NCBI RefSeq assembly: GCF_018350175.1
Contig: NC_058374.1
Coordinates: forward strand, 138,818,001-138,882,000
DNA from: Felis catus
Taxonomy: Eukaryota
Length of the DNA stretch: 64,000 nucleotides
Reading direction: 5' to 3'
Part shown: positions 1-54,771 of the stretch, in pieces
Layout: every line of letters starts with the position of its first letter
Position numbering within the stretch: the stretch's first letter is position 1
Position numbers and translations under genes: made by a program
The notes under the pieces: model-generated
Seen by the model: the letters and a program-made list of their open reading frames with translations, nothing else
Databases searched by the model: none
Told to the model about the DNA's origin: nothing

Positions 1-71
1 TCTCACGAACCTTGAGATCATGACCTGAGCCGAAATCAAAGAGTCGGACGCTTAACCAGCTGCGCGTCCCA
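1..71 (-). mobile_element. CAN-SINE (SINEC), partial at window edge
   Basis: gagatcatgacctgagccgaaatc..cggacgcttaacc is the reverse complement of the SINE head. Confidence 0.85.
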
Positions 72-142
72 CAAGTGATGACCTTTTGCACCGTCATCTT
101 GATGTCTGTGTGGGGGTGGCCCTGAGCATGTGGAGGGGCCCC

Positions 143-160
143 TGCACGCGCGCACACGTG

Positions 161-201
<41 letters not shown>
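143..201. repeat. (CG/CA)n-(CA)n microsatellite
   Basis: Seen directly. Confidence 0.95.
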
Positions 202-203
<2 letters not shown>

Positions 204-2107
204 AAGCTGCAGATGAGCTGTAGGATTGAAACCTGGGGATTAGGTTTATGTAAACCTCTGTTTTGGTTTTAAAGAGAATTTCTGAAAAACCATCTTGGTT
301 AAAGCTTATTTATCAGTAGGCAAAGGCCTTTTCCAGTTCGGGGTCCAAAAGCCACGTAGAAACACTGCCCTCCCGCCTTGTGCCCGTCTGTGGCCAGGCC
401 TTGCCTGGGACCCTGGCCTCGGGCTCTCCTCTCGGGCCGCTCCTGTGCTGGGCCCCAGGCCATACTGAGCCTTGGTGGGGGCTGCTCTGTGTGTGGGGTG
501 AGATGGACCCCCCAGCCCAGGGAGGGTCGGGGGCAGAGTGAGCCTGGCATCACACTTGGAACCTCCCGGGCCTCAGTGCCCTCTGGCCTCGGATGGGTTG
601 TGGATCAGAAAATTGGATTTTCAAAAAGCAATTCGGGCACATTCCACTCCAGCCTTGTTTGCCGATCATCGAGCATTAGCATAGGTTGTTCCGGAATGTT
701 TGAGTGAGTCCACGGGTGTTAGAAATCCAAGGCCCCTTTTTTCCGATTGAGGTCACACGGCTCTTGTTTCCCTGAGGTCACCCCGCTGGTGTCCCCCTTG
801 ACCGGGAGCTGCGGGTGGGACCGGGCGCCCCAACGTCTTAGGCTGCGATGTCCTGATGCCCGTCTCCCCGCTGCCCGCTGTCTCCTGTGTCCTGTGCACG
901 TAACAGGCACCGACAGCAGTCCAGGTCTGGTGGGACGAGTCGCCCGGAGTACCCACACCCGTGTCCTCCGGCCTCTCCCAGGGGGCGGCACGCAGCCCGT
1001 TACTGTTGAAATGGCTGTTTGTTTCTAGCAGGTGATCGTGTTAGAAAAGTCAGTTAGTGCCTGTGTAAACCGAGCCCAGGACCCCAGAAAGCGGCCACCG
1101 GCCACCCGGACCCCGGGCCCACCTGTGGCTCAGGCAGGGCTGTGTCATTCGCAGTGCATGCCTGGGCCCGGGCTCGGCAGGGCACATTTGTTAGCGCTTC
1201 TCAGGTGGGCTGCGGCTTCCGGAACCTCCAGGCTCACCAGAGACATCCTGGTGTTGAGGCCGTCACCCGTGCCTGGGAATGGAAGGCACTCCGTCAGGTC
1301 CTGGGCGCCTCTCCTGTTCCCAGTAAACCCCTGTCGGTGGGAGCTCTGGGCGTGGACGGCTGTTTGGGCCGCCCGGCCCCCTCCTCCCTGACCGTGGCTC
1401 CCTTCTCTGGGACTCCACCTCTGTCTCGTGTGTTCCTCACCCACTGCCTAGCGAGGCTGCAGGCCTCACCCACCCTGCTTGTCTCCCGTCCAGCTCGTCC
1501 CCTGCGCCTCCTGCTCCAGATTCCAGTCGCGGCTTTCAAGCCCGCAAACCAGGTCGGTTCACGGAAGTGTGGCGTGAAATCCCGTTATGTGAACAGAGCA
1601 GAAACCGCCCCCCATCCTTCCCCGAAGCTGAGGGTCTCCAGGCCTGGCATCTCTATCTTGAAAGAGTCCTCTGTGTTCCACCCCGCCCCCCAAGCCCCTG
1701 CTGAGTTCTGCCTGGGGCTCCACCCTCCCCACATCCTGGGGTCCCTGCTGGCCTGGGAGCCACAGGAACAGTGCGTTGCAGCCCGGCCAAAGCACCCCCC
1801 CGGGGGCTGGGGGCTGGGGGCTGGGCCAGCTCCATCAGGCCCTTTGGCTGAAAGGTCAGTGGTCAGGGTCTGGCAGGTGGACAGAACTCCAGGCGAGGGC
1901 TCTGAGGCCGGGGGACTGCCGTGATCCGTTGTGGCTGGGCCGCAGGGGCAGGAAGCCAGGCAGGTGGCTGGCACGGGCATCACCCAGCCTGTGGCCTTGC
2001 ACGGGGCTTGCTGAGTGCGTGCATTGATAAGTGTCTTTTCATTAGCATGCTAGTTAATTAGCGTAAGGGGTATTTATTCGGAACTTAATAAAGAAACAGA
2101 TGTGTTA

Positions 2108-2292
2108 GGAGCGCCTGGGTGGCTCAGTCGGTTGAGTGTCTGACCCTTCGGCTCAGCTCAGGATCTCACGGTCCAAGCCCCACATGGGGCTGTGCCGAGG
2201 GCGGAGCCTGCTTGGGATTCTGTCTCTCCCCCTCTCTGCCCCCCCCCCACACTTGCTCTCTCTCAAAATAAACAAATGAACTTAAAAAAAAG
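2108..2292 (+). mobile_element. CAN-SINE (SINEC)
   Basis: GCGCCTGGGTGGCTCAGTCGGTT head, CT tract, A tail, TSD cagatgtgtta. Confidence 0.93.
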
Positions 2293-2560
2293 CAGATGTG
2301 TTAATAGGAGAGGAAAGGGTTGCATGTTTATTAGCGATTACTCGGTTATTAAAAAAACAGCAAAAAAAGCGTGTCCGTCACGAACGCGACTCTGTGAGGC
2401 CCGGACGCCGTCACGACGTCTGAGCCGTCAGGTCCCAGTGGAGCCCAGCTGCTTGGAAGGAACGCTCGAGTGCGGTGGGCTCCCTGAGTGCCAGGACTTT
2501 GCAGAGCCCGGGCTCGCTTGGAACTAACAGGACTCTTGCCCCTTCTCCCCTCCCTTTAAG

Positions 2561-2622
2561 AACCGAGGAGCAGACGGCTCAGCAGCCTCCGAAGGGGCAG
2601 GCCCAGGTCAATAACGGAGCAG
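2561..2622 (+). CDS. GRAMD4: GRAMD4 coding exon (62 nt; RTEEQTAQQPPKGQAQVNNGA)
   Basis: ccctttaag| acceptor, |gtaggg donor, peptide match. Confidence 0.93.
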
Positions 2623-4471
2623 GTAGGGCCCCCGTGGGCGGCCGGGCCGGGGTGGGGTGGGGTGGGGGTCGGGCCTGTTCCTGGGCACACCTGCCCACGC
2701 GGGGTCTCCTTGCGTCGGGCCCCCGTGGGCGGCTGCGGTTGTGAGCTGGCGAGCGGTCACAGCAAATGAGATGTGATTTCATTTTTCTGTAAGGATGCCG
2801 CGCGGCACCCGCTCCAGCCCTTCCTGACTGAGAAGTAGTGTCGTCCTCACACTGGCCTCTCGGCCACTGACCTGGGGGCCCCTCCCTGGGTCAGGACACA
2901 CAAGCCTCTTCTCTGCACCCCCCCCCACCCCCCGCCGAGCCCTGTTCTTTATCTCGCTCTGCCCTTTGTCCTTCCTAACGATGTCCTGGGAGGAAACGGG
3001 ACTTTCTGTCCAGCTGTCTAGGGATCTGACCCGGGGTGGGCCTGGCCCTCCCATCTCCTGACGTAGGACACGTTCCCACAGGCTGACCACTCGTGAGCAC
3101 CCCCTCTGTGCTGGGAGCTCAGAGTCACGCTGGCAGGGCCTCGGGCTCAGGCCTGTCTCCCATACAGCTCAGGAAACCGAGACCCGGGAGGGAAAGCCTC
3201 TTCAAGGGGCACCCGCCACGTGGAGGCCCAGACAGGTCCTGTCTTCCAGCGGGGACGTGCAGGTAGGCCGGTCCAGGTACAGGGCCGGCTGCTGTGCCCC
3301 TTGGGTCACCGTCTCCCCGGGCCCCTCCACGCTCAAGACCCGGGTTCCAAGCCAGGAGCGGCAGGAGAGACCCCGAGGTCCCGGCTGTGCACCGTGATTG
3401 ATGAGTCCCCTGCACGCGTGGGGAGTGTCAGAGAAGTGAAGGGCGGAAAGACCCCGACGCTCTGGGTCCCCAGCCGAGGTCCACTCGGTAGCCCTCGTCA
3501 CCGGTGCGGTGTGTGGGCAGAGGGAGGGACAGTGGGAGGAGGGGACAGGTGCTCTGCGTGGTGCCCCCCGCCCCGCAGCCAGCACGGAGGGGTGAGCAGC
3601 GCCCGAAGCCTGTCCAGGCCACAGGCCCGACGTAGACCTGGGGGTTGGCATACCGGAGCCCCCTGTCTGACTTCACAGTTTAAAAAAAAAGGTTTCTGCA
3701 TTTTTAAACGGCTGGGAAAGAATGAAAGGAACGTGGATTTCACAATTGAGCGTCCATAGTGTGGTTTCATGGGGACGCAGGCGGTCCCATCGGGTCACGT
3801 ACTGTCCGTGGCTGCTGTCCAGCCGTCCAGGTGGCTGTAGCATTCACTGCTTCGCCCACCTCTGCGTGTGCTGAGCACAGTCCCGCTCCAGGGAGGGGTG
3901 AGAGGCCCCCAGACGCTCCCCGTTCCTTTCCTCTCCGAGACCTCTGTTCCCTGTGCCTGGGCGGCCTCTGTGTGCAGACCTGGCCCGGTAGAGTGTCACA
4001 CGGGACCACGTCCCTGCCCTCCCTCTCCTTAATTGTGGCGGGACAGCGCCCCCTGCGGGTGACTCTGTGCGGAGCACTCAGGGTGCGTGGTTTCCTCCGG
4101 GTTTTCTGAATCTGTGAGGTGGGTCCCCTTCTGAAGGTCTTGGTCATGGGGGGCAAAGGCCACGTCCTTCACTGGGGCCCCCACCAGGACACAACCCCTG
4201 GGCGCACACGTTCCCTGGCCGTCCCTCAGGTCCACGGGGTCCCAGGGGGTGAGCCCCCAGCCAGAGAGAGAAAGGGAGGGCGACCCCGTCCCCGGGGGCG
4301 GGCCGTCTGCTGGGGCTGCAGCTGCTCCCCGGGAGGGGGGTGTGACAACAGAGACGCCACGGGGTCCGCGGTGGCCGTGTCGGGCCTCGTGGCGGGAGCG
4401 GGTCAGGCTCGGCGTCAGGGTGTCCACGCCCCACTGTATCCGTGTTCCTCACCGGGAGCCCCTCCCCGCAG

Positions 4472-16557: not shown

Positions 16558-16662
16558 CCGCTGGTGTTTGGTGCCATGGTGCATAGAGACGAGGCCTTCG
16601 AGACCATTTTTAGCCAGTACATGAAGATCACAGCAGCAGCCGCGTCTGGTAGTGACAGCTAG
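16558..16662 (+). CDS. GRAMD4: GRAMD4 last coding exon (PLVFGAMVHRDEAFETIFSQYMKITAAAASGSDS*)
   Basis: cccgccag| acceptor; TAG stop 16660-16662. Confidence 0.96.
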   Translation, partial: PLVFGAMVHRDEAFETIFSQYMKITAAAASGSDS

Positions 16663-18959: not shown

Positions 18960-21059
18960 CCCGACGTGCTCTGTGCTCAGGGGAGCGGTGGGGGCGGGAA
19001 GGGGGGTGCGCTTGGCTTTCCTGGCAGAGCCCGAGTGCGTCCCGGGCAGCGGGAGCCCAGGAATCCCGCGGCCACCGGGGCACTGGAGGGTCCTGGGGGT
19101 TTGGGGCTCCACAGCTGTCTCGGTGACCGCGGGGGGTGAGGTGGGTGCCCGGGGAGCGGGCTGTGGGATGGGGCCACGAAGGAGGGTCCCAGGGGCCCGT
19201 GGACATCGAGGAGCTGGGGGGAGCAGGGAGCAGGGCCCCAGGTTCTAGAAGGAGACTGTAGGCCAGTGGGGCCGGCAGCTTGCAGGTTGGGGCGTCCCGG
19301 GCCTGGCACCGGGTGGCAGTGGGTGGTGGGACCATCACTGCAGGGCCGCGGGGGAGCCTGGGGAAGGAACGGAAGCGGCGCCTCGGGTTTGGGGTAAGGG
19401 CCCCGGCCCCACCTGGGCGTGACCTCACTGGGAGGGGTGGGCGTCGCTGGGGCCCTCCCCTGGGGTCTGAGGCTGAGAGGTGGGGGGACTCGAGGACCCC
19501 GGGCAGAGGGATCCCCAGTGGCACCTGTGGCTTGGCCGATCCCGACACTGACCCTGGAGACAGAGGGATGCAGGAACCGGGCCGACTTCTGAACCCGCCG
19601 CAGTCCCGCACCGAGCTGAGCTGCACACGACTGAGGGCGTCCGGCCCCCAGCACCCCAAGCCCACAGGAGCCCGCGGGAGGCAGAGACCCACCCGGCTCC
19701 CTCCAGGGGAGCTGGAGCTGGACAGAAACCAGGTCTGATGGGCCAGCTCTGCCCCCAGAGGCGTGGCCTTGTGTCCTGCCTCCATCCACCTGTTCGTCCA
19801 GCCATCTCCCCATCCATCTGCTGCAGGCACTGTCCGAGGGGCTGGGACGTAGCCATGAAGGGCCGGTGGTCCCTGGGAATCCCCGTGCCGTCCCCCAACC
19901 CGACTCTCCTGACAGCAAGAGAGGGCTTGCCTAGCCCCAGAGCCCCCGCTCGCCCCTCTGCAGCACGGCTCGACAGGACGGTCCCTGCGAGCGCCCGGCC
20001 CTGTGGGGACACCTGCTCTCTGGAGGCAGAAGGGCGAGGAGGGATCCGAGCCCAGGGTGTGGGCGGCACAGGCCCCACCCATCCTCGCTGGTGGGGCTCC
20101 GGGTTCTACGTCTGTTTTCCCATTTGATGGGCCAGTAGAACAGCACAGAGCTGCCTAATCGTGATCGAAAACTTCGCTAGCTGTATTTCAGCGTGGTTGG
20201 TTTCCTCTGGGGGCCTGGACACGGCATTTCGCAGCAGCACTCTGGAGAGGCCGTCTCTGGCTTCACCTGGGCGTCCGTGAAGCCAAAAAAGGCGACCGGG
20301 TGCCCCTGTAGTACTTGGCCTCTATTCTTGGAGAGATCGAGCCCCTGCGGTGCTCCTTCTGGCTGCAGATCGGGTGGGGGGGGTCCGGGGACGGAGGAGA
20401 CAGGAACACAGAGTCATTTGTTAACGGTCTTGTTCAAGCGGGCTTCCCTTCACAGGCACCCGTGGTTTCTTCTGTAACAGCACCTAGCGAGCGAGTCTCA
20501 GGACCGTGTGAGTAAATGCGAGGGCCACACGTGGCCTGGGGGGCTGTCACCACGCGGTCAGGAGCCAAAGGTGGTGATTCCGTTCACCCACAGAAACCAA
20601 CACGCGGAGCTGACTCCGAACGCGTCTGCTGTTAACGGAGGCTGGAGTGAGGGGTTGGCTACTTGGGGTGTGATGGCCCTGAAGGCTGCGGGAGATTCAG
20701 GGGGCGGCCACTGCCCGCGAGGTGAGGAAGGATCCGGAAGACCCTGTCCTGTGCTAGGGTGTGTGGGGAAGCCCCCAGAACCCACCGAAGCAGGGAAGCC
20801 CGCCCCTTCCTTCTGCAGGGTCCTGGACCCTGCTCCCTTAGAGGCACTGTTGTCCCTTCTGTCCCTAGCAGTCCGAGCTGGTGCAGACAGGGGGACCCGA
20901 AACGTGTAAGGTCGTAAAGGCATCTCCTCGAGGACTCCTGCGGGTAGGTGATGGGACTGGGGAAACCCCAGGTCTACAGCTAAGTTGTCACACGAGGCAC
21001 GTTTTCTGGAGACCGTGTGGTATGTGGTACATTAAAAAAATCCCACTTTTATGTAAAAT

Positions 21060-22019: not shown

Positions 22020-22258
22020 TACTGGGGAATTTTGTGTGGGAAATAACGGAGGATTTAGGCTCGTGCAGACCCACCTCCCCAGCGGTAGACGCGGTGGACG
22101 GGGTTCTGCTCCTGGAAGCAGAGAGGAGGGCACACCTTCTCAAGGGGAAGTTTATGTCCCACTCTTAGCGGGGACGGGGCGGGTGGGGGGCAGGAAGCTC
22201 CTTCTGCATTTGCGGCCTGAGGGTCTTCAGCTCAAAACAATCCTATGCCAAAGTGTGT
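22020..22258. mobile_element. Probable ERV1-class LTR fragment (MER4/MER31/MER34-group-like)
   Basis: ttcagctcaaaacaatcctatgccaaagtg resembles a motif recalled from this LTR group; family uncertain. Confidence 0.45.
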
Positions 22259-22404
22259 GTTGTGTGCGTCCCCTCCCCTCACACGGACCAAGGGAACAGC
22301 ACGCTGCGAACAGCCACCTCTGTGGAGGGGCGGGGAGGGGAGGGGTCAGCCCCTAAGGACACACGGGGACTCTGGGCCTGGCCGGTAGGTACACCATCGT
22401 TCAT

Positions 22405-22410
22405 TTTATT
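22405..22410 (-). terminator. CERK candidate polyadenylation signal AATAAA (distal)
   Basis: TTTATT on + strand at the edge of an AT-rich block. Confidence 0.65.
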
Positions 22411-22509
22411 CTTGCTCTTTAAATTGTACACAGGTGTTTTCACAAAACATGCTCCGCTTTGAAAATAACAGGAGTTTATAAAAGAAGAAAAAATTCTGCC
22501 CAACGTAAC

Positions 22510-22515
22510 TTTATT
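22510..22515 (-). terminator. CERK candidate polyadenylation signal AATAAA (proximal)
   Basis: TTTATT on + strand; first canonical hexamer I find downstream of the CERK stop. Confidence 0.6.
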
Positions 22516-23683
22516 TCTGTCTTCTCAAACGTGTCAGAGCAAATATGCCATTTTCTAATCTCGAAACCCGCAAGATTAAAAGAAAATGAAGCCACCTCTT
22601 CCATCGGTCCTGCCCCGTTACACGAGATTGTACAAGGAACAAAGTCGAGCCTGCCCGCCGAGCAGGTGCAGCTTCCGAGGTTCCTCCTTGGTAGTCAGAA
22701 CAAGCGGGAAACGGGTCAGGGCATAAGTACCACCACGGTTTTTTGCACCAATGAGTCACACAGGAAGTTAAAGCCTAGTCTAATCCTAGATGATCCTAAG
22801 TCCTCACTAACCAGCTGTCAGTTCTGACGTGCACATGTTGGGGCTCCATCTGGGGCCTTCGGGAGATCAGAACCCCCTGCCCACATGGGAATGTCTGGAA
22901 AGTACTTCCATCCCGTGTAGAGATTATCAAGGAGTGCTGGGGGGTGTTCACACAACCACACGCACCCTAAGAACCGTCCCAAGGCCTGTGATGTCGGCAC
23001 AAGGTCAGCCCTCCAGGAACCGCGTGGCTCGCCTTCTCGGTGAACGTGAACTGTGGACTCCGGCCTGGACTGTTTCTCTAAAACCGGCCATGGACTTCAG
23101 ACCAGTACTGTTTTAGGAAACATCAGGTAACAATCCACAGAGCGGCTGTGGGCGGCCGGGAGCCCCGTTGGCGAGGCCCTCGCGCCCCTGCTCAGACCTG
23201 CCAGTCCTGGGTCTGGTTTCTTCCAACCAGCAGCAAGCACTGAGAATTATTTTCATACCCAGACTTTTCACCCACCCGCTAATCATTAAAACATCGGATT
23301 CGCACAATCGCTTGATAATGTGATCTTATTAAAAAAGCCAGTCAAAGCTACCCTTTTTGTCTGACCTGGGATTGAATGATAAAATAGGAAATTTCATGTA
23401 TACTTCAAAATATAAATGCTGCAAGTAAATTCTAAAAATATATGATGTCTGTTAATGCTAAAATGACTATTTGTGCCTACGTGAGGTCAAGGGCACTCGT
23501 AAAGCACATGACGGCTTGTGAACCGCCTCTTGTAACAGGCTTCCTCTCTCTTTGCAAACCAGAGTTCAAGCCTCATCTTGTATTTCAAATAAAGCTATTT
23601 TCGATGCGTCTCCCATATAGCTAAGCATGAATACAAAGGAAATGGGGCCACGAGCATGCACGAGGGCCACCCCAGGGCCAGTG

Positions 23684-25259
23684 GCCATGCCTGCAGGGAA
23701 GCGCCAGCCACCTGTAGGGAACCCCCGGCCTTTGCAGGGAACCCTGGCCGCCTGTGAGGAACCCCCGGTCACTGCAGAGAACCCTGACTGCCTGTAAGGA
23801 ACCCCCAGCCGCTGCAGGGAACCCCCGGCTGCCTATAGGGAACCCCTGGCCGCCTGTAGGGAACCCCTGGCCACTGCAGGGAACCCTGGCTGCTGCAGGG
23901 AACCCCTGGCCGCCTGTAGGGAACCCCTGGCCCCCTGTAGGGAACCCCTGGCCGCTGCAGGGAACCCCCGGCCGCCTGTAGGGAACCCCCGGCCGCCTGT
24001 AGGGAACCCCCGGCTGCCTGTAGGGAACCCCTGGCTGCTGCAGGGAACCCTGGCCGCTGCAGGGAACCCCTGGCTGCTGCAGGGAACCCCTGGCCGCCTG
24101 TGAGGAACCCCCGGCTGCCTGTAGGGAACCCCTGGCCGCTGCAGGGAACCCCTGGCCGCTGCAGGGAACCCCAGCCGCTGTAGGGAACCCCCGGCTGCCT
24201 GTAGGGAACCCCTGGCCGCTGCAGGGAACCCCTGGCCGCTGCAGGGAACCCCAGCCGCTGTAGGGAACCCCCGGCCGCCTGTAGGGACCCCCCGGCCACT
24301 GCAGGGAACCCTGGCCACCTGTGAGGAACCCCCGGTCACTGCAGAGAACCCTGCCTGTAAGGAACCCCCAGCCGCTGCAGGGAACCCCTGGCTGCCTATA
24401 GGGAACCCCCAGCTGCCTGTAGGGAACCCCCAGTCACTGCACGGAACCCTGGCTGCCTGTAAGGAACCCCCGGCCACTGCAGGGAACCCCTGGCCGCCTG
24501 TAGGGAACCCCTGGCCCCCTGTAGGGAACCCCCGGATGCCTGTAGGGAACCCCTGGCCGCTGCAGGGAACCCCCGGCCGCCTGTAGGGAACCCCCGGCCG
24601 CCTGTAGGGAACCCCCGGCCGCCTGTAGGGAACCCCTGGCTGCTGCAGGGAACCGTGGCTGCTGCAGGGAACCCCTGGCCGCCTGTAGGGAACCCCCAGC
24701 CTTTGCAGGGAACCCTGGCCGCCTGTGAAGAACCCCCGGTCACGGCAGAGAACCCTGGCTGCCTGTAAGGAACCCCCAGCCGCTGCAGGGAACCCCCGGC
24801 CGCCTATAGGGAACCCCCAGCCGCCTGTAGGGAACCCCCAGCCTTTGCAGGGAACCCTGGCCGCCTGTGAAGAACCCCCGGTCACGGCAGAGAACCCTGG
24901 CTGCCTGTAAGGAACCCCCAGCCGCTGCAGGGAACCCCCGGCCGCCTATAGGGAACCCCCAGCCGCCTGTAGGGAACCCCCAGCCTTTGCAGGGAACCCT
25001 GGCCGCCTGTGAAGAACCCCCGGTCACGGCAGAGAACCCTGGCTGCCTGTAAGGAACCCCCAGCCGCTGCAGGGAACCCCCGGCCGCCTATAGGGAACCC
25101 CCAGCCGCCTGTAGGGAACCCCCGACGCCTGTAGGGAACCCCCGGCTGCCTGTAGGGAACCCTGGCCACTGCAGGGAACCCCTGGCCACCTGTAGGTTGG
25201 AACCCCTGACCGCCTGTAGGGAACCCCTGGCCGCTGCAGGGAACCCCTGGCCGCTGCAG
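23684..25259. repeat. Minisatellite/VNTR, 19-21 bp monomer GCCGCCTGTAGGGAACCCC(C/T)G / GCCGCTGCAGGGAACCCCTG, ~75-80 copies, with 142-bp higher-order repeat
   Basis: Tandem array visible directly; identical ORF translations offset by 142 bp (24725 vs 24867). Confidence 0.98.
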
Positions 25260-26287
25260 CTCCAGCGCTTCAGCGGAAAACTATCTAAAATACTAACCCT
25301 GAAGACACCATTTACACTATTCTGGCTGAAAAGGACAACAGTTTCAATAAATATGTAGAACTGAACGTGAAGAAAAGCTCCAGTCGGGACCACGTGTATA
25401 GACCCGGGGCCTCCACCAAAGTAGCCCCCGGGACTCGGGAGCCCCACCGCCAACCAGGGCAGGGTGCCCGGATGTCAAGCGAACACAGCGTCCACAGAGT
25501 GAAGTTTTTCCTACTGCGTGCCAGCTTCTCTCCATGTCACCCCCCCACCCCCCACGCCCAGTGTGGCCATAAAGCGTCGGCACCCAGCCGTAAAACCGAT
25601 GCCGTCTCCAGGGCCCGTGATTGTTCCTGCTGACCAGCCGGATTGTCCCAGAAACACGACCGTGACGAAAGCAAGGACCTGGGTTTTCAAGATAAAGTGC
25701 CACTCCCGTCCGTGTCCCCACAACAGTGCTGCACTCCCGAGGTGTCCCCGAAGCAGGGCTACGTTGCATTGTAGTTGCCCGGGACACAGAGAGTCCGGAA
25801 GTTTCCTAAGTAGAAGCTCAGATGAAGGCAAAATGAAGGCGACCGACTACTTTCCGAAACCCGACCACAAATAACTACAGAGTGAGTCGTGCGACGTGGA
25901 TCAGCGAGCGGGGAGACCCCGTCCGGATGGTGTGACCGCACATTCGCTGTCCCTAAACTTATTGCGGCAGAGCCACCGATGGGCCCTTTCAAAATCTGCA
26001 CCGTCGGCGTTGTTAAAATCTAAGAAGCCAGCGCCCCCAAACTGGTAAGTGCCATTGGCTGAGAAGAAGTTACGTGAAACGCAGCCCAAAGAGTCACGTA
26101 GAACCGAAAATGCCAGGTATGTTCACAATATTGTTGACGAAGGTATTTTTCTAAAATCAAGATTTAACTATCAAAAATAAATTTCTAAATTTAAATGTGT
26201 ATATCAACGTAATCGGTCTGTAGTAATTTTCTTAAACAGCGGTCACGGTTCCCAATCACGGCAAGGCAGGTGATGCGTGACAGCGTC

Positions 26288-26360
26288 TCAGCTCTGTGAC
26301 TCTTCCTTAGGATTCTCCTCGATTCCTCGTGCAAAGAGACGAACCAGCTGGCAGTGGACC
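26288..26360 (-). CDS. CERK: CERK exon 13, coding part (VHCQLVRLFARGIEENPKEESQS*)
   Basis: ctgcag| acceptor; TGA stop at 26290-26288. Confidence 0.95.
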
Positions 26361-28364: not shown

Positions 28365-28967
28365 CTGCAGAGAGACACGGAAGGGGCTGGCGCTTTTACG
28401 GGCGCTTTTGCGGGGGAGGCCCGTCCGTGGCCGGCGCGCCCGCAGCTCGGACACGAAGCGAAGGCCGCCGCCCGCCTCCCGGCGCGTCCATGGCGACCGG
28501 CGCTTTCTCAAGATTCTGGTAGTTCCCTAGTAGGGACTTGTAGAATTCTTCATCTTTTTAACAAGCACTGTTTTGCAAGCCACATAAAAATACCATTACG
28601 CTAGACCTGAAATGCAATTTAATTTAAAAAAAGGAAAACACATCTTACTACGACCAGAGGCCAACCCACACTTATCTCGTTAGAGTTGGGGTCTGCCGTT
28701 GTATTAACTACAAGGATGCCAGCGACTACGGAGAGGTTTGCTAGAAAGAGGTTTGTGTCTTTAACGAGCTCTCAGAAGGAGCAGACGCTAGGAGCTTCCA
28801 ATGGGTGAAACGCAGACCAGAAACCTGACCTTGTTCCCTGGGACTCAGCAGTGGGTTCCTACGGCACGGCAGTCAGGGATCACCCGCAGGGACGCTGCCC
28901 GCGTAGACGCTGCCCAAATGGACCCCGCCCACCAGCGCGGACGGGGCAGGGCGAGCGCCCCACTCAC

Positions 28968-29173
28968 CTGGTCGTACTGGTTCGTGTGCCTGACGAGAAA
29001 CCTCAGGAAGTTGAACCGGGAGCACTTCCGGATGAGGATGAGGTCGGAAGACCCGTCCCCCAGGTGGGCGGCCGGGGACAGGCCCTGGGGACTCCGGGGA
29101 CAAGCACAGGACATGTTGGTGGCGTTGATGGCCAGGAACTTCCCGCAGACGACCTTCCACTCTTCCACCTCCT
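28968..29173 (-). CDS. CERK: CERK exon 11 (206 nt; EEVEEWKVVCGKFLAINATNMSCACPRSPQGLSPAAHLGDGSSDLILIRKCSRFNFLRFLVRHTNQYDQ)
   Basis: cttcag| and |gtgagt. Confidence 0.96.
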
Positions 29174-29781
29174 CTGAAGCAGAAAGGCATCGCAGACGGC
29201 ACGTCACACGCGGGCGCGCGTCCCGAGACCGTCCCTACGGGTCTCCCGTGGACTGACCCTCGGCCCCAGCACACGGGCCCTGTGCCGGCCGCCGTGCCCG
29301 GAGGGTCGCCTCCGAAAGGGCACAGCTGTGCCACTGGTCCTCACGTGGGGACGTCTGAACAACTTAGAGCGGGGGCCACCGAGCCCGGCCTGTCACCCGA
29401 TTCCGCGTCAGCCGAGAATAATTTTCCCCTTCGTAAGCGGTTTACAAAACTCCAGAGGAACAGTATCTCGTGACATACGAAGATTACACGAAACTCTAAC
29501 GTCGGCGTCCACAGCTAAGTTTCTGGAACGCTGCTGCGCCCACCCCCTTCCCGGCGCCTGGCAAAGCCCACAGACGAGAGTATAACGCTTGACAGGAACT
29601 GTCGCCGGCCCCCAGGCCAGAGCAGCCATGTTGCTGCCCGGAGGCGAGCAGAGAGGGACACACGCGCCCACCGACAAAGGGGGGGGACGCACAGCGGGAA
29701 GACGCAGCGCCCTCAGAGGTTCCACAGCTTCAAACCCCAACACACGCGGCAGTGACCGTGAGTCCGCGGCCCAGACATTAC

Positions 29782-30626: not shown

Positions 30627-30684
30627 CTGGGAACGGAGCACAAAGTAAAGCAGCCCCAGCGTCGTTTTCTGGCCACGAGGCCAC

Positions 30685-30818
30685 CAGCTGCACCTGTTCC
30701 GGGACACAGCGCCCCCCCCCCCCCCCCCGCTGCACCTGTTCCGGGACACAGCACCGCCCTGCGGCCCCCCAGCTGCACCTGTTCTGGGACACAGCGCCCT
30801 CCACCGCTCCCCCCCCCC
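30685..30818. repeat. 3-copy ~42-bp tandem repeat (GCTGCACCTGTTCCGGGACACAGC + C-run)
   Basis: Units begin at ~30685, 30729 and 30770. Confidence 0.9.
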
Positions 30819-52618: not shown

Positions 52619-54710
52619 CTGGGGGCAGGGGGACTGGAGGCCACACTGGACACGACGGCCTGCTCACCCCCCGACCTCTGGCCCCGTCTGCCCACTCGCC
52701 ACTCCCCAGGGACGCTGGGCTGGCACACGGACACACGATTTGTTCTGTGGACACGCTGTGGCTTTAGTCACTTGGTCCCGCCAGCCCAGCTCTGTCCCCC
52801 TCAATTGCCCTAAACCTTCCCCAGGCCTCCTGACCTTGCCTAACCTCACACCCTCTTGCTTCAGACGGTAACAGAATGTTCCACAAAACCATCCAGAAAA
52901 CCTACCCACTCATGATGGCTTGGACATAACTTCCACGAAAATATTTCCCTGTCTCCTCAAACTGAATTTCCCAAGAATACATTGTTACGCCGCCAGACAA
53001 AAAAAAAAGTTTCAAACAAAGGAGGCGCTGTCCCAGGGGCACGCTGAGCTGGAACCCGCATCTATGTCACAGACGCGTCCTGGGGACACCTGACCTCAGT
53101 GCCCCAAAGCAGCAACTCAAAAGCTGGCATTCGAAAAGGCGTTTCCAACCTGCCAGATGAGTCAGTGATGCTCCCAGAACCTGTATTCCGTCACGGGCTC
53201 ACGGGCGTGGCCCAATCCACATCCTGAGTCGGCGTGAAACATTTCAGAAAGAAACTTGCATCGGGCCGGCAGACAGAACACTCGCCACACAACCTGACAT
53301 GCGGTCGGCAGCCGGCTCATTCCAGACGCCTGCACCTGTCGCTTCCCCGAGGCAGGGGCTCTGCGTCCGCGCGCCCTGTGGGGAACACTGGAAACCAGCC
53401 CCCTGGCTGTCCGTCCTGGTGCCAACATGGTTTCAGTTATGTCTGCTCTCGAGAAGGCTGGATTTGGATCCCAACAGAAACAGACTGTTTTATTACCCTC
53501 TACAGATACTGCAAATTTTGAGAAACAGACGTTCCAGTAAAGTTGATCATAAACAGAGAACTAAAGAGATGCTATTTATTAATGACAACAGACTCTCTCT
53601 CCACGGAACGGCACATGTCACTTCCGCAGGGAGAGCACTTGCAGAGAGAAAAGTCCAAGGACAGAAAGAGCCATTTGTGTTCGAAGAGTAAAGTGGAGAG
53701 ATGTGGGTGACGGGTCATTAAACCCAGACGGTCACTGCGAGTTTGTGGGCAAAGGGACCCAGGGCAGCGCCGGCTTTGAGGGATCAGCAGAAGAAATACC
53801 AGCCATAGGAAATCACGATGTGATGGAAACACACGGGTTTTGCTACAAGTGTTTTCTTCGTTGCGTCCTCCCCCACCCGGGATGCGAAACCGCCAATCGG
53901 CACAGTGTCCTCCGAAGGTGTGCGACCAAGGTCTAGTTTGGCAACACGCTGCTAATGCTTAGAAGTGAAATGTCAAGTCAACTTGCATCGACTTTTGCAA
54001 GGCTGTCAAAACTGAGCAAGTTCAAAATAAAGGAAAATACAGAAGACGCACGTTTTCAACCAGATTAGAAAGAGAAAACCATATGTTTTGAATACATATT
54101 TGATATTTTTATTCTATGCCATTAAACATCTTATACACCGATCTCGGGATAGGACACTCACTCTACCCTCTTCTTCACTGATGATGAATTCTACCACTTG
54201 CCCAACATGACAAATTCCAAAGTAACACAGAATGAACTTATGAGGTTGCCCTGGAGTGGGGAACACTTAACCAGCGTGCTGGGGAGATACACACACCCAC
54301 CACGAACACGACTACCCGCCTCACCCAGGGTTTCCCACTTCAGCCTAATCGCCTCCCCCGCGAGGCCCCCTCCCTTGTCCGCACACACACCCTGCCCGAG
54401 ATCGCTGTGCACACACATCCACGCATGTACGCGGTCATCTCTCTGCCACACTGCCAGGTCACAACTCCCGAAGGACGAGCCTGCCGATGTGCCCCAACGG
54501 GTCCCCCCTCACGGGGGCCTGGCGCTGTCTCGCTGTGGGACGCGGACGCACTGGCTCTAGGCCGGGGGCCTGGTAACACGGCAGTGAGCCTGGTGGTTTG
54601 CGAGTGCAGTTGTGTGCTTAACGGGCACGTGTGTAAAATCCCCACAACAACTCAAAGGGTAAATACGGTCCTTGCTTTTCAGACGACTCAGCAGGAGGCC
54701 TCGCCCAGGA

Positions 54711-54771
54711 CCCTAACCCTAACCCTGACCCCAACCCCTAACCCCTAACCCCTAACCCTAACCCTAACCCT
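54711..54771. repeat. Short interstitial telomeric sequence (CCCTAA)n with variants
   Basis: CCCTAA x2, CCCTGA, CCCCAA, CCCCTAA x3, CCCTAA x2, CCCT. Confidence 0.9.

What the first reader, a model, noticed from the sequence alone, without database searches (positions are those of the whole stretch)
23684..25259. ~1.57-kb quasi-palindromic minisatellite inside the predicted CERK 3'UTR
Seen: ~75-80 monomers of 19-21 bp between the stop codon and the polyA signals, about 40% of the predicted UTR. In mRNA sense many units contain CAGGG-GUU-CCCUG or AGGG-GUU-CCCU mini-hairpins, plus CUGCAG and GGCC palindromes. Monomer variants GCCGC>GCTGC/GCCAC look like CpG deamination, suggesting germline methylation. 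Inference: a lineage-specific, probably length-polymorphic structured RNA array that could tune CERK mRNA stability, localisation or multivalent protein binding. I do not recall such an array in human or mouse CERK, but cannot verify novelty.
Basis: partly seen in the sequence, partly recalled or inferred. Interest (0 to 1): 0.72.

Follow-up and report, generated by a model that had tools for sequence, protein, structure and literature searches.

The report
Minisatellite in felid CERK mRNA tail
The untranslated tail of a cat-family ceramide-kinase gene holds a real 1.6-kb, roughly 77-copy GC-rich repeat whose predicted folding is no better than that of shuffled sequence, and which is likely an ordinary, near-neutral chromosome-end minisatellite rather than a built RNA regulator.

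Summary
The array is real: 23689-25254, about 77 units of mostly 19-21 bp, 70% GC, found at one locus. It lies between the CERK stop and a poly(A) end at about 22382 seen in RNA data, making 40% of a 3,906-nt UTR. Two RNA-like contigs run from that end into the array and stop at predicted branch points, so array sequence is transcribed. CpG decay is supported. The 'structured RNA' reading is not: folding z-scores are near 0 and 0 of 47 mini-hairpins exceed 50% probability. The array sits 3.3 Mb from the contig end, where 6 other arrays of 500 bp or more occur in 600 kb, against 0 in 200 kb mid-contig. Best reading: an ordinary subtelomeric minisatellite that landed in a UTR. Untested leads: 21 miR-331-3p seed sites (predicted buried, plausibly chance) and 24 NF-kB consensus sites. 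Length polymorphism and felid specificity were not shown. The scan noted a similar kind of 3'UTR array before, at SHISA7 in this genome.

The parts
23689..25259 (-). GC-rich minisatellite, about 77 units of 19-21 bp, two basic unit types (20-mer and 21-mer) with interspersed variants; read in CERK mRNA sense on the minus strand
   Evidence: 29 of 29 genome-wide pattern hits lie inside it
24678..25123 (.). Three near-exact copies of a 142-bp, 7-unit higher-order repeat; likely the youngest expansion; holds none of the miR-331-3p seed sites inside it
   Evidence: 304-bp exact match at offset 142; unit order; site list has a 507-nt gap from 24678 to 25185
22382..26287 (-). CERK 3'UTR, 3,906 nt, of the isoform that ends at the distal poly(A) site
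   Evidence: stop; RNA end
26288..26360 (-). Coding part of the CERK last exon with the stop codon at 26288-26290
   Evidence: same C-terminus as felid CERK proteins P0005, P0007, P0126, P0131
22405..22410 (-). AATAAA signal 23-24 nt upstream of the observed RNA end; a second AATAAA lies at 22510-22515
22381..22382 (-). Poly(A) cleavage site, inferred from contig starts and the loss of depth beyond it
   Evidence: contigs of X1 and X4 begin at 22382 and 22381; depth 0 at 22250-22345 in 4 of 4 runs
23488..23622 (-). UTR stretch homologous to an alternative last exon annotated in Arctic fox CERK; acceptor-like AG at 23621-23622; splicing here would skip the array; not seen used in this species
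   Evidence: no joint or loose end there

Best explanation
This is a single-locus GC-rich minisatellite inside the CERK 3'UTR that likely grew by ordinary subtelomeric repeat turnover and is likely a near-neutral passenger in the mRNA. Shown: position, anatomy, single locus, transcription of its distal edge, CpG-type variants, and no excess folding. Inferred steps: (1) a short imperfect doublet in the UTR seeded a 20/21-bp unit; (2) recombination-driven duplication and conversion, common in GC-rich distal chromosome ends, amplified it in steps, the last being the 142-bp block tripled; (3) gene-body methylation in the germ line deaminated both CpGs of the unit on both strands; (4) the mRNA carries the array, which pairs promiscuously between units as any 70%-GC periodic sequence does, with at most a small unselected effect on CERK output.
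For: Anatomy: variant units interspersed, nested duplications of 80, 142 and about 600 bp. One locus: 29 of 29 pattern hits in G000 are inside the array, control pattern 0. Setting: 3.3 Mb from the end of a 142.2-Mb contig; in 600 kb sampled from the distal region outside the window there are 15 arrays of 150 bp or more, 6 of 500 or more and 2 of 1,000 or more, against 0 in 200 kb mid-contig. In human, VNTRs with over 60% GC and units over 15 bp are 21-fold enriched in the last 5 Mb (PMC7608644, passages). No excess structure: z = +0.02, +1.35, +0.52, -1.04, +0.06 in 5 of 5 array windows; z 0.30 over 700 nt with 9 of 20 shuffles as stable; 48% and 60.5% of 200 shuffled-monomer arrays fold as well; no Rfam family at its gathering score. 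CpG: among 73 of 75 parsed units, site 1 is TG 34, CG 24, CA 15 and site 2 is CG 37, TG 17, CA 12, other 7, never TA; CpG observed/expected 0.36 against 0.66 and 0.91 in the flanks. The youngest block adds no miR-331-3p site.
Against: Neutrality is an inference from setting and from negative predictions; no expression, reporter or population data were available. At local density a 2.3-kb UTR has only about a 0.8% chance of holding an array of 1 kb or more (2.3% for 500 bp or more), so the placement is uncommon per gene. Only 1.7% of human SVs span a UTR (PMC7608644). A 1.6-kb, 70%-GC insert with 21 miRNA seed sites and 63 runs of four or more G could change mRNA behaviour even if unselected. 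The background rests on one chromosome end and a single mid-contig block with lower GC (42%).
Confidence: 0.72

Rival explanations
1. Repeat-borne microRNA target: the TG variant of the unit creates a miR-331-3p seed site, so the array would put felid CERK under copy-number-dependent miR-331-3p repression.
For: The genome's own mir-331 hairpin (L092) gives a seed with 21 7mer-m8 sites in the array and 0 in the other UTR parts tested (22382-23688 and 25260-26100); many are 20-45 nt apart. Cat miR-331-3p has the same 5' end and 62-3,324 counts across the tissue samples in PMC5569061 (supplement row). A UTR VNTR sharing sites with a miRNA is reported for human SHISA7 (PMC7398795, abstract only).
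Against: I picked this miRNA from memory after seeing the unit, so it is a post-hoc match. With 31-48 abundant 7-mers and 270-500 seeds, the chance of some match is 40-77% (475 mature cat miRNAs). None of the 21 sites is an 8mer. Predicted accessibility is very low: median 0.0005 unpaired against 0.056 in the distal UTR. The site is a by-product of CpG decay, and the youngest block holds none.
Confidence: 0.08
2. DNA-level element: a homotypic cluster of NF-kB sites acting as an enhancer or sink, as reported for the HRAS1 minisatellite.
For: 24 strict GGGRNWYYCC matches in 1.57 kb against 38 in the other 62 kb of the window; 0.8% of 20,000 shuffled units hold such a site (consensus recalled). 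The HRAS1 minisatellite (28 bp, 68% GC, 3' of the gene) binds rel/NF-kB (PMC3618361, passages citing Trepicchio and Krontiris 1992).
Against: One motif in one unit is multiplied by the repeat, and hundreds of factor motifs could have matched. CpG decay points to methylated gene-body chromatin. No binding or chromatin data were seen.
Confidence: 0.07
3. One reading: a structured, multivalent RNA array (hairpins or G-quadruplexes, G-run binders such as hnRNP H/F) that tunes CERK mRNA stability or location.
For: The RNA is in absolute terms very stable (about -90 to -105 kcal/mol per 200 nt against -34 to -76 in the UTR windows outside it). An isolated CAGGG-GUU-CCCUG folds at -5.4 kcal/mol. There are 63 runs of four or more G.
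Against: Stability is explained by composition. Mini-hairpin pair probability averages 0.086, maximum 0.44, 0 of 47 above 0.5; no inverted repeat of 14 bp or more; G4Hunter mean 0.49, and no canonical G4 pattern with loops up to 12 nt, though 19 with loops up to 20.
Confidence: 0.09
4. The array is mostly absent from mature mRNA (proximal polyadenylation or splicing to a downstream acceptor) or is mis-assembled.
For: Arctic fox models splice exon 12 to an acceptor homologous to 23621, which here would skip the array. In mRNA sense 62 positions look like weak acceptors (6 pyrimidines + NCAG). No indexed run holds more than 0.82 of the sampled words. The proximal UTR could not be examined with reads.
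Against: X1 and X4 contigs run unbroken from the poly(A) end across 23621 into the array; X1 ends at 23757, the first branch predicted from the window, whose partner copies lie at 24699, 24841 and 24983. Their word shares (0.79, 0.77) exceed what flanks alone (0.68) or distal flank plus array (0.70) could give. No AATAAA or ATTAAA lies between the stop and the array; none of the 62 acceptor-like sites has 8 pyrimidines.
Confidence: 0.04

Closest known systems
GC-rich subtelomeric minisatellites/VNTRs (human survey, PMC7608644)
   Same: Unit over 15 bp, GC over 60%, within 5 Mb of the sequence end, interspersed variant units, single locus.
   Different: Lies in a mature-mRNA UTR rather than an intron or intergenic DNA; length variation is not yet shown here.
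SLC6A3/DAT1 3'UTR 40-bp VNTR (as reviewed in PMC12776774, section read)
   Same: Minisatellite inside a 3'UTR of a protein-coding mRNA.
   Different: DAT1 has 9-10 units of 40 bp with alleles tied to expression; here about 77 units of 20-21 bp fill 40% of the UTR and no allele or expression data exist.
SHISA7 3'UTR VNTR with miR-3681-5p sites (PMC7398795, abstract only)
   Same: A UTR repeat that multiplies a microRNA site.
   Different: Here the candidate is miR-331-3p, the match is post hoc, the sites are predicted buried and nothing is tested.
HRAS1 minisatellite (PMC3618361, passages)
   Same: GC-rich (68-70%) variant-unit array at a gene's 3' end, with rel/NF-kB-type sites.
   Different: HRAS1 binding was shown by experiment and its unit is 28 bp; here there is only a consensus match, and the array is within the transcript.

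Membership tests
GC-rich subtelomeric minisatellite / VNTR | Head-to-tail units of about 10-100 bp with interspersed variants | tested here: met
GC-rich subtelomeric minisatellite / VNTR | GC over 60%, unit over 15 bp, within 5 Mb of a chromosome end | tested here: met
   70% GC; 3.3 Mb from the contig end; that the contig end is the chromosome end is inferred
GC-rich subtelomeric minisatellite / VNTR | Single-locus array, not a dispersed satellite family | tested here: met
   29 of 29 exact pattern hits inside the array; one pattern, no mismatches
GC-rich subtelomeric minisatellite / VNTR | Copy number varies between individuals | tested here: inconclusive
   X4's contig passes the first predicted branch and ends at the second (23780), unlike X1, which hints at a different allele; no spanning reads
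Regulatory 3'UTR VNTR (SLC6A3, SHISA7 type) | Present in the mature mRNA 3'UTR | tested here: met
   met for the distal-poly(A) isoform, interior inferred from branch points; share of isoforms unknown
Regulatory 3'UTR VNTR (SLC6A3, SHISA7 type) | Allele-dependent expression or reporter output | not testable with these tools
   needs genotyped expression data or reporters
Structured RNA repeat array | Folds more stably than composition- and period-matched controls, with a repeating defined fold | tested here: not met
Structured RNA repeat array | Match to a curated RNA family | tested here: not met
   22300-26100 against Rfam: 1 match, E 0.67, 22.7 bits against a cut-off of 41
Structured RNA repeat array | Covariation across species | not testable with these tools
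   no orthologous DNA could be fetched
Repeat-borne microRNA target | Many seed matches to an expressed microRNA | tested here: met
   21 7mer-m8 sites for miR-331-3p; expression from PMC5569061 supplement row
Repeat-borne microRNA target | Sites accessible | tested here: not met
   predicted only: median unpaired probability 0.0005, maximum 0.009
Repeat-borne microRNA target | Repression that depends on the seed | not testable with these tools
   needs reporters or AGO CLIP
HRAS1-type NF-kB-binding minisatellite | kB consensus sites in the unit | tested here: met
   24 strict matches; consensus recalled from memory
HRAS1-type NF-kB-binding minisatellite | Rel/NF-kB binding and enhancer activity | not testable with these tools
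   needs EMSA, ChIP or reporter

The most novel reading that the evidence does not exclude
CpG decay inside a young, length-variable repeat created 21 tandem miR-331-3p sites in the felid CERK 3'UTR, so that cats carry a heritable dial on ceramide-kinase dosage set by repeat number and by the mix of unit variants, with an alternative last exon able to splice the dial out.
Probability: 0.07. Interest if true: 0.55.

Novelty: new member of a known kind. Interest (0 to 1): 0.2.

Why it matters
If it is the passenger it looks like, it matters little: a possible multi-allelic marker and a mapping blind spot in cat CERK, where short-read assemblies break. If copy number or unit mix changes CERK output, it would be a clean natural case of methylation-driven mutation in a repeat creating a multivalent microRNA target, testable in cats, on an enzyme that makes ceramide-1-phosphate (role recalled, not from a call).

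Tried and rejected
Run search: no RNA holder listed on record; 14 of 24 rows were RNA by guess only, 2 were raw RNA runs added by species label. I used only the four runs that I laid (X1, X4, X23, X24). The ceiling of 0.82 in word share cannot tell polymorphism from contig clean-up, so it is not used as evidence of variation. Read depth over the proximal UTR and over the array itself was not obtained, so proximal polyadenylation and the share of array-bearing isoforms stay open. Cross-species search: a 270-aa stop-free frame of the array found no protein at E 1e-5 among 7,994 candidates; a two-unit pattern found 0 matches in metagenome contigs; neither says anything about other felids. A coding role was rejected: no ATG in the array in mRNA sense, stops in all six frames, no homologue. 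A dispersed satellite family was rejected. Canonical G-quadruplex and long ungapped hairpins were rejected. The GRAM-domain search did not return this window among 14 matches, so the plus-strand neighbour is called GRAMD4 only from recalled peptide motifs. Paper searches with no hit: CERK + minisatellite + untranslated region, ceramide kinase + cat + feline + CERK, a five-term VNTR search; searches listed nothing on this locus by title or abstract start. CERK had 0 rows in the two held supplements of PMC7608644 (one human survey, files may be cut). PMC430879 was not held. No earlier scan note lay near this place.

Full report
Observation. Tandem Repeats Finder gives 23689-25254, period 21, 77.1 copies, 76% matches, and a second period of 142. 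It is the only array of 150 bp or more with a period of at least 10 in the window. Cutting at a fixed anchor gives 75 whole units of 37 types, 73 of them 19-21 bp. GC is 70%. A 19-letter degenerate pattern matched 29 times in G000, all inside the array, with 0 hits for the reversed control, so it is a single-locus repeat. The longest internal exact matches are 304 bp at offset 142 (three near-exact 7-unit blocks, 24678-25123), 92 bp at offset 80 and 81 bp at offset 605. This nested pattern suggests stepwise and partly recent growth (inference).

Gene context. An exon at 28962-29180 (minus) matches Pfam CERK_C and is 99% identical to puma and Felis catus ceramide kinase. The last exon ends in the same peptide as felid CERK and differs from canid CERK, so the genome is a felid's. 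The stop is at 26288-26290. Minus-strand AATAAA signals lie at 22405 and 22510; no AATAAA or ATTAAA lies between the stop and the array, only one weak variant of the 12 hexamers scanned.

Is it in the mRNA? I laid 4 of the 24 listed runs on the distal flank, 22250-23680. Two raw single-cell RNA runs (one study; about 1 in 100 of each read) gave 42 and 49 reads, piled at about 22390-22780, with mate orientation that fits a minus-strand RNA in 3'-tag libraries (library logic recalled). Contigs from X1 and X4 (RNA by guess, two other studies) begin at 22382 and 22381, and all four runs have depth 0 at 22250-22345. That marks the poly(A) site, 23-24 nt past the distal AATAAA, and gives a 3,906-nt UTR of which the array is 40%. 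Both contigs run unbroken to the array and go on for 77 and 101 letters. A 31-mer graph of the window predicts its first branch at 23757, where a 30-mer recurs at 24699, 24841 and 24983, and its second at 23780, where one recurs at 24318. X1 ends at 23757 and X4 at 23780, assuming no indel in the unlaid part. X1 therefore very likely holds the inner 142-bp blocks as RNA. X4 passing the first branch hints at a different allele; X4 also bears another organism label and 7 other letters in 1,299. Word shares of X1 and X4 (0.79, 0.77 of 345 sampled words) exceed the 0.68 that both flanks alone could give and the 0.70 that distal flank plus array could give. Reads over the proximal UTR and the array itself were not obtained, so minor proximal ends are not excluded.

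Structure. The RNA is stable because it is GC-rich and periodic, not beyond that. Five 200-nt windows in the array have z = +0.02, +1.35, +0.52, -1.04 and +0.06 against 30 dinucleotide shuffles each. A 700-nt piece has z 0.30, with 9 of 20 shuffles as stable. Ten-fold repeats of the modal 20-mer and 21-mer are matched or beaten by 48% and 60.5% of 200 shuffled-unit repeats. The GGG-GUU-CCC hairpin, present 47 times, has mean pair probability 0.086, and 0 of 47 exceed 0.5; pairing is spread over all distances. There is no ungapped inverted repeat of 14 bp or more, no canonical G-quadruplex pattern with loops up to 12 nt (19 with loops up to 20), and no Rfam match at a gathering score. These are predictions, not probing data.

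CpG decay. Both CpGs of the unit occur as CG, TG and CA and never as TA. Among 73 of 75 parsed units, site 1 is TG 34, CG 24, CA 15; site 2 is CG 37, TG 17, CA 12, other 7; the variants occur on both unit types (one search parsed 65 of 75 with the same pattern). CpG observed/expected is 0.36 against 0.66 and 0.91 in the flanks. This fits deamination on both strands, hence germ-line methylation (inference). Copies are not independent, and one frequent non-CpG variant exists (position 18, 32 copies).

Setting. The array lies 3.3 Mb from the end of a 142.2-Mb contig. In three 200-kb blocks of the distal region there are 15 arrays of 150 bp or more, 6 of 500 or more and 2 of 1,000 or more; a 200-kb block at 90 Mb has none. 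This matches the human pattern of 21-fold enrichment of GC-rich, long-unit VNTRs in the last 5 Mb (PMC7608644, 12 passages read). At that density a 2.3-kb UTR has about a 0.8% chance of holding a 1-kb array: uncommon per gene, expected a few times per genome (inference).

Leads for an effect. (1) The genome's mir-331 hairpin yields a seed with 21 7mer-m8 sites in the array and 0 in the other UTR parts tested. Cat miR-331-3p is widely expressed (PMC5569061, abstract and one supplement row; PMC12313912, passages). But I chose it from memory after seeing the unit, some seed match is expected with 40-77% chance, the sites are predicted buried (median 0.0005 against 0.056 in the distal UTR), and the youngest block has none. 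(2) There are 24 strict kB consensus sites, against 38 in the rest of the window; 0.8% of shuffled units hold one. The HRAS1 minisatellite is the precedent (PMC3618361, passages; the primary paper was not read). (3) Two Arctic fox CERK models join exon 12 to an alternative last exon homologous to 23621-23488, just past the array (2 of the 15 cluster members listed). An acceptor-like AG is present here, but the X1 and X4 contigs show no joint there (contigs drop rare forms).

What could not be shown. No other mammal's DNA was reachable: a protein search with an array frame and a metagenome pattern scan were blank, which is no evidence of absence. Lineage specificity and length polymorphism stay open. 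CERK had no row in the held supplements of one human SV survey. Searches found no paper on this array; subscription journals and bioRxiv supplements are not covered.

Comparison and verdict. It is a GC-rich subtelomeric-type minisatellite, and it sits where regulatory 3'UTR VNTRs such as SLC6A3 (PMC12776774, passages and section 11) and SHISA7 (PMC7398795, abstract only) sit. Membership of the regulatory class is unproven, and it fails the test for a structured RNA array. Earlier scan notes on SHISA7 in this genome pointed me to that paper and show the kind recurs. New member of a known kind; interest 0.2; the boldest reading left open, a miR-331-3p dial on CERK, has about 7% probability.

Noticed in passing
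window 23488-23622 (minus): Homologous to an alternative CERK last exon in two Arctic fox models (P0024, P0125). An acceptor-like AG with a pyrimidine-rich tract is present here; its use would replace the C-terminus and drop the array. No joint seen in two contig sets.
   Followed up: partly
G000:C16:138969851-138973263 (L040-L041), about 88 kb right of the window: A larger minisatellite: 3.4 kb, 19-bp unit, about 180 copies, 90% matches.
   Followed up: no
window 23648: Run X1's contig lacks 3 letters here, in the degenerate zone just outside the array; 22474 reads A instead of G in X23, X24 and X4.
   Followed up: no
window about 16585-16660 (plus): A plus-strand gene ends here, tail to tail with CERK; its peptide matches my recollection of GRAMD4, not confirmed by a family search. 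Plus-strand ATTAAA and AATAAA lie at 21031 and 21057.
   Followed up: partly
window 23588-23593 (plus): A plus-strand AATAAA 100 bp from the array; only one read of the opposite orientation per raw run was laid on the flank, so no sign of an antisense end.
   Followed up: partly
G000:C17:169269822-169279642 (minus): A second locus with five exons matching Pfam CERK_C, probably the paralogue CERKL (name recalled).
   Followed up: no
window 54710-54771: About 10 degenerate copies of ACCCTA, a telomere-like hexamer, inside a CERK intron.
   Followed up: no
window 30684-30814: Three copies of a 43-bp intronic repeat, 82% matches.
   Followed up: no
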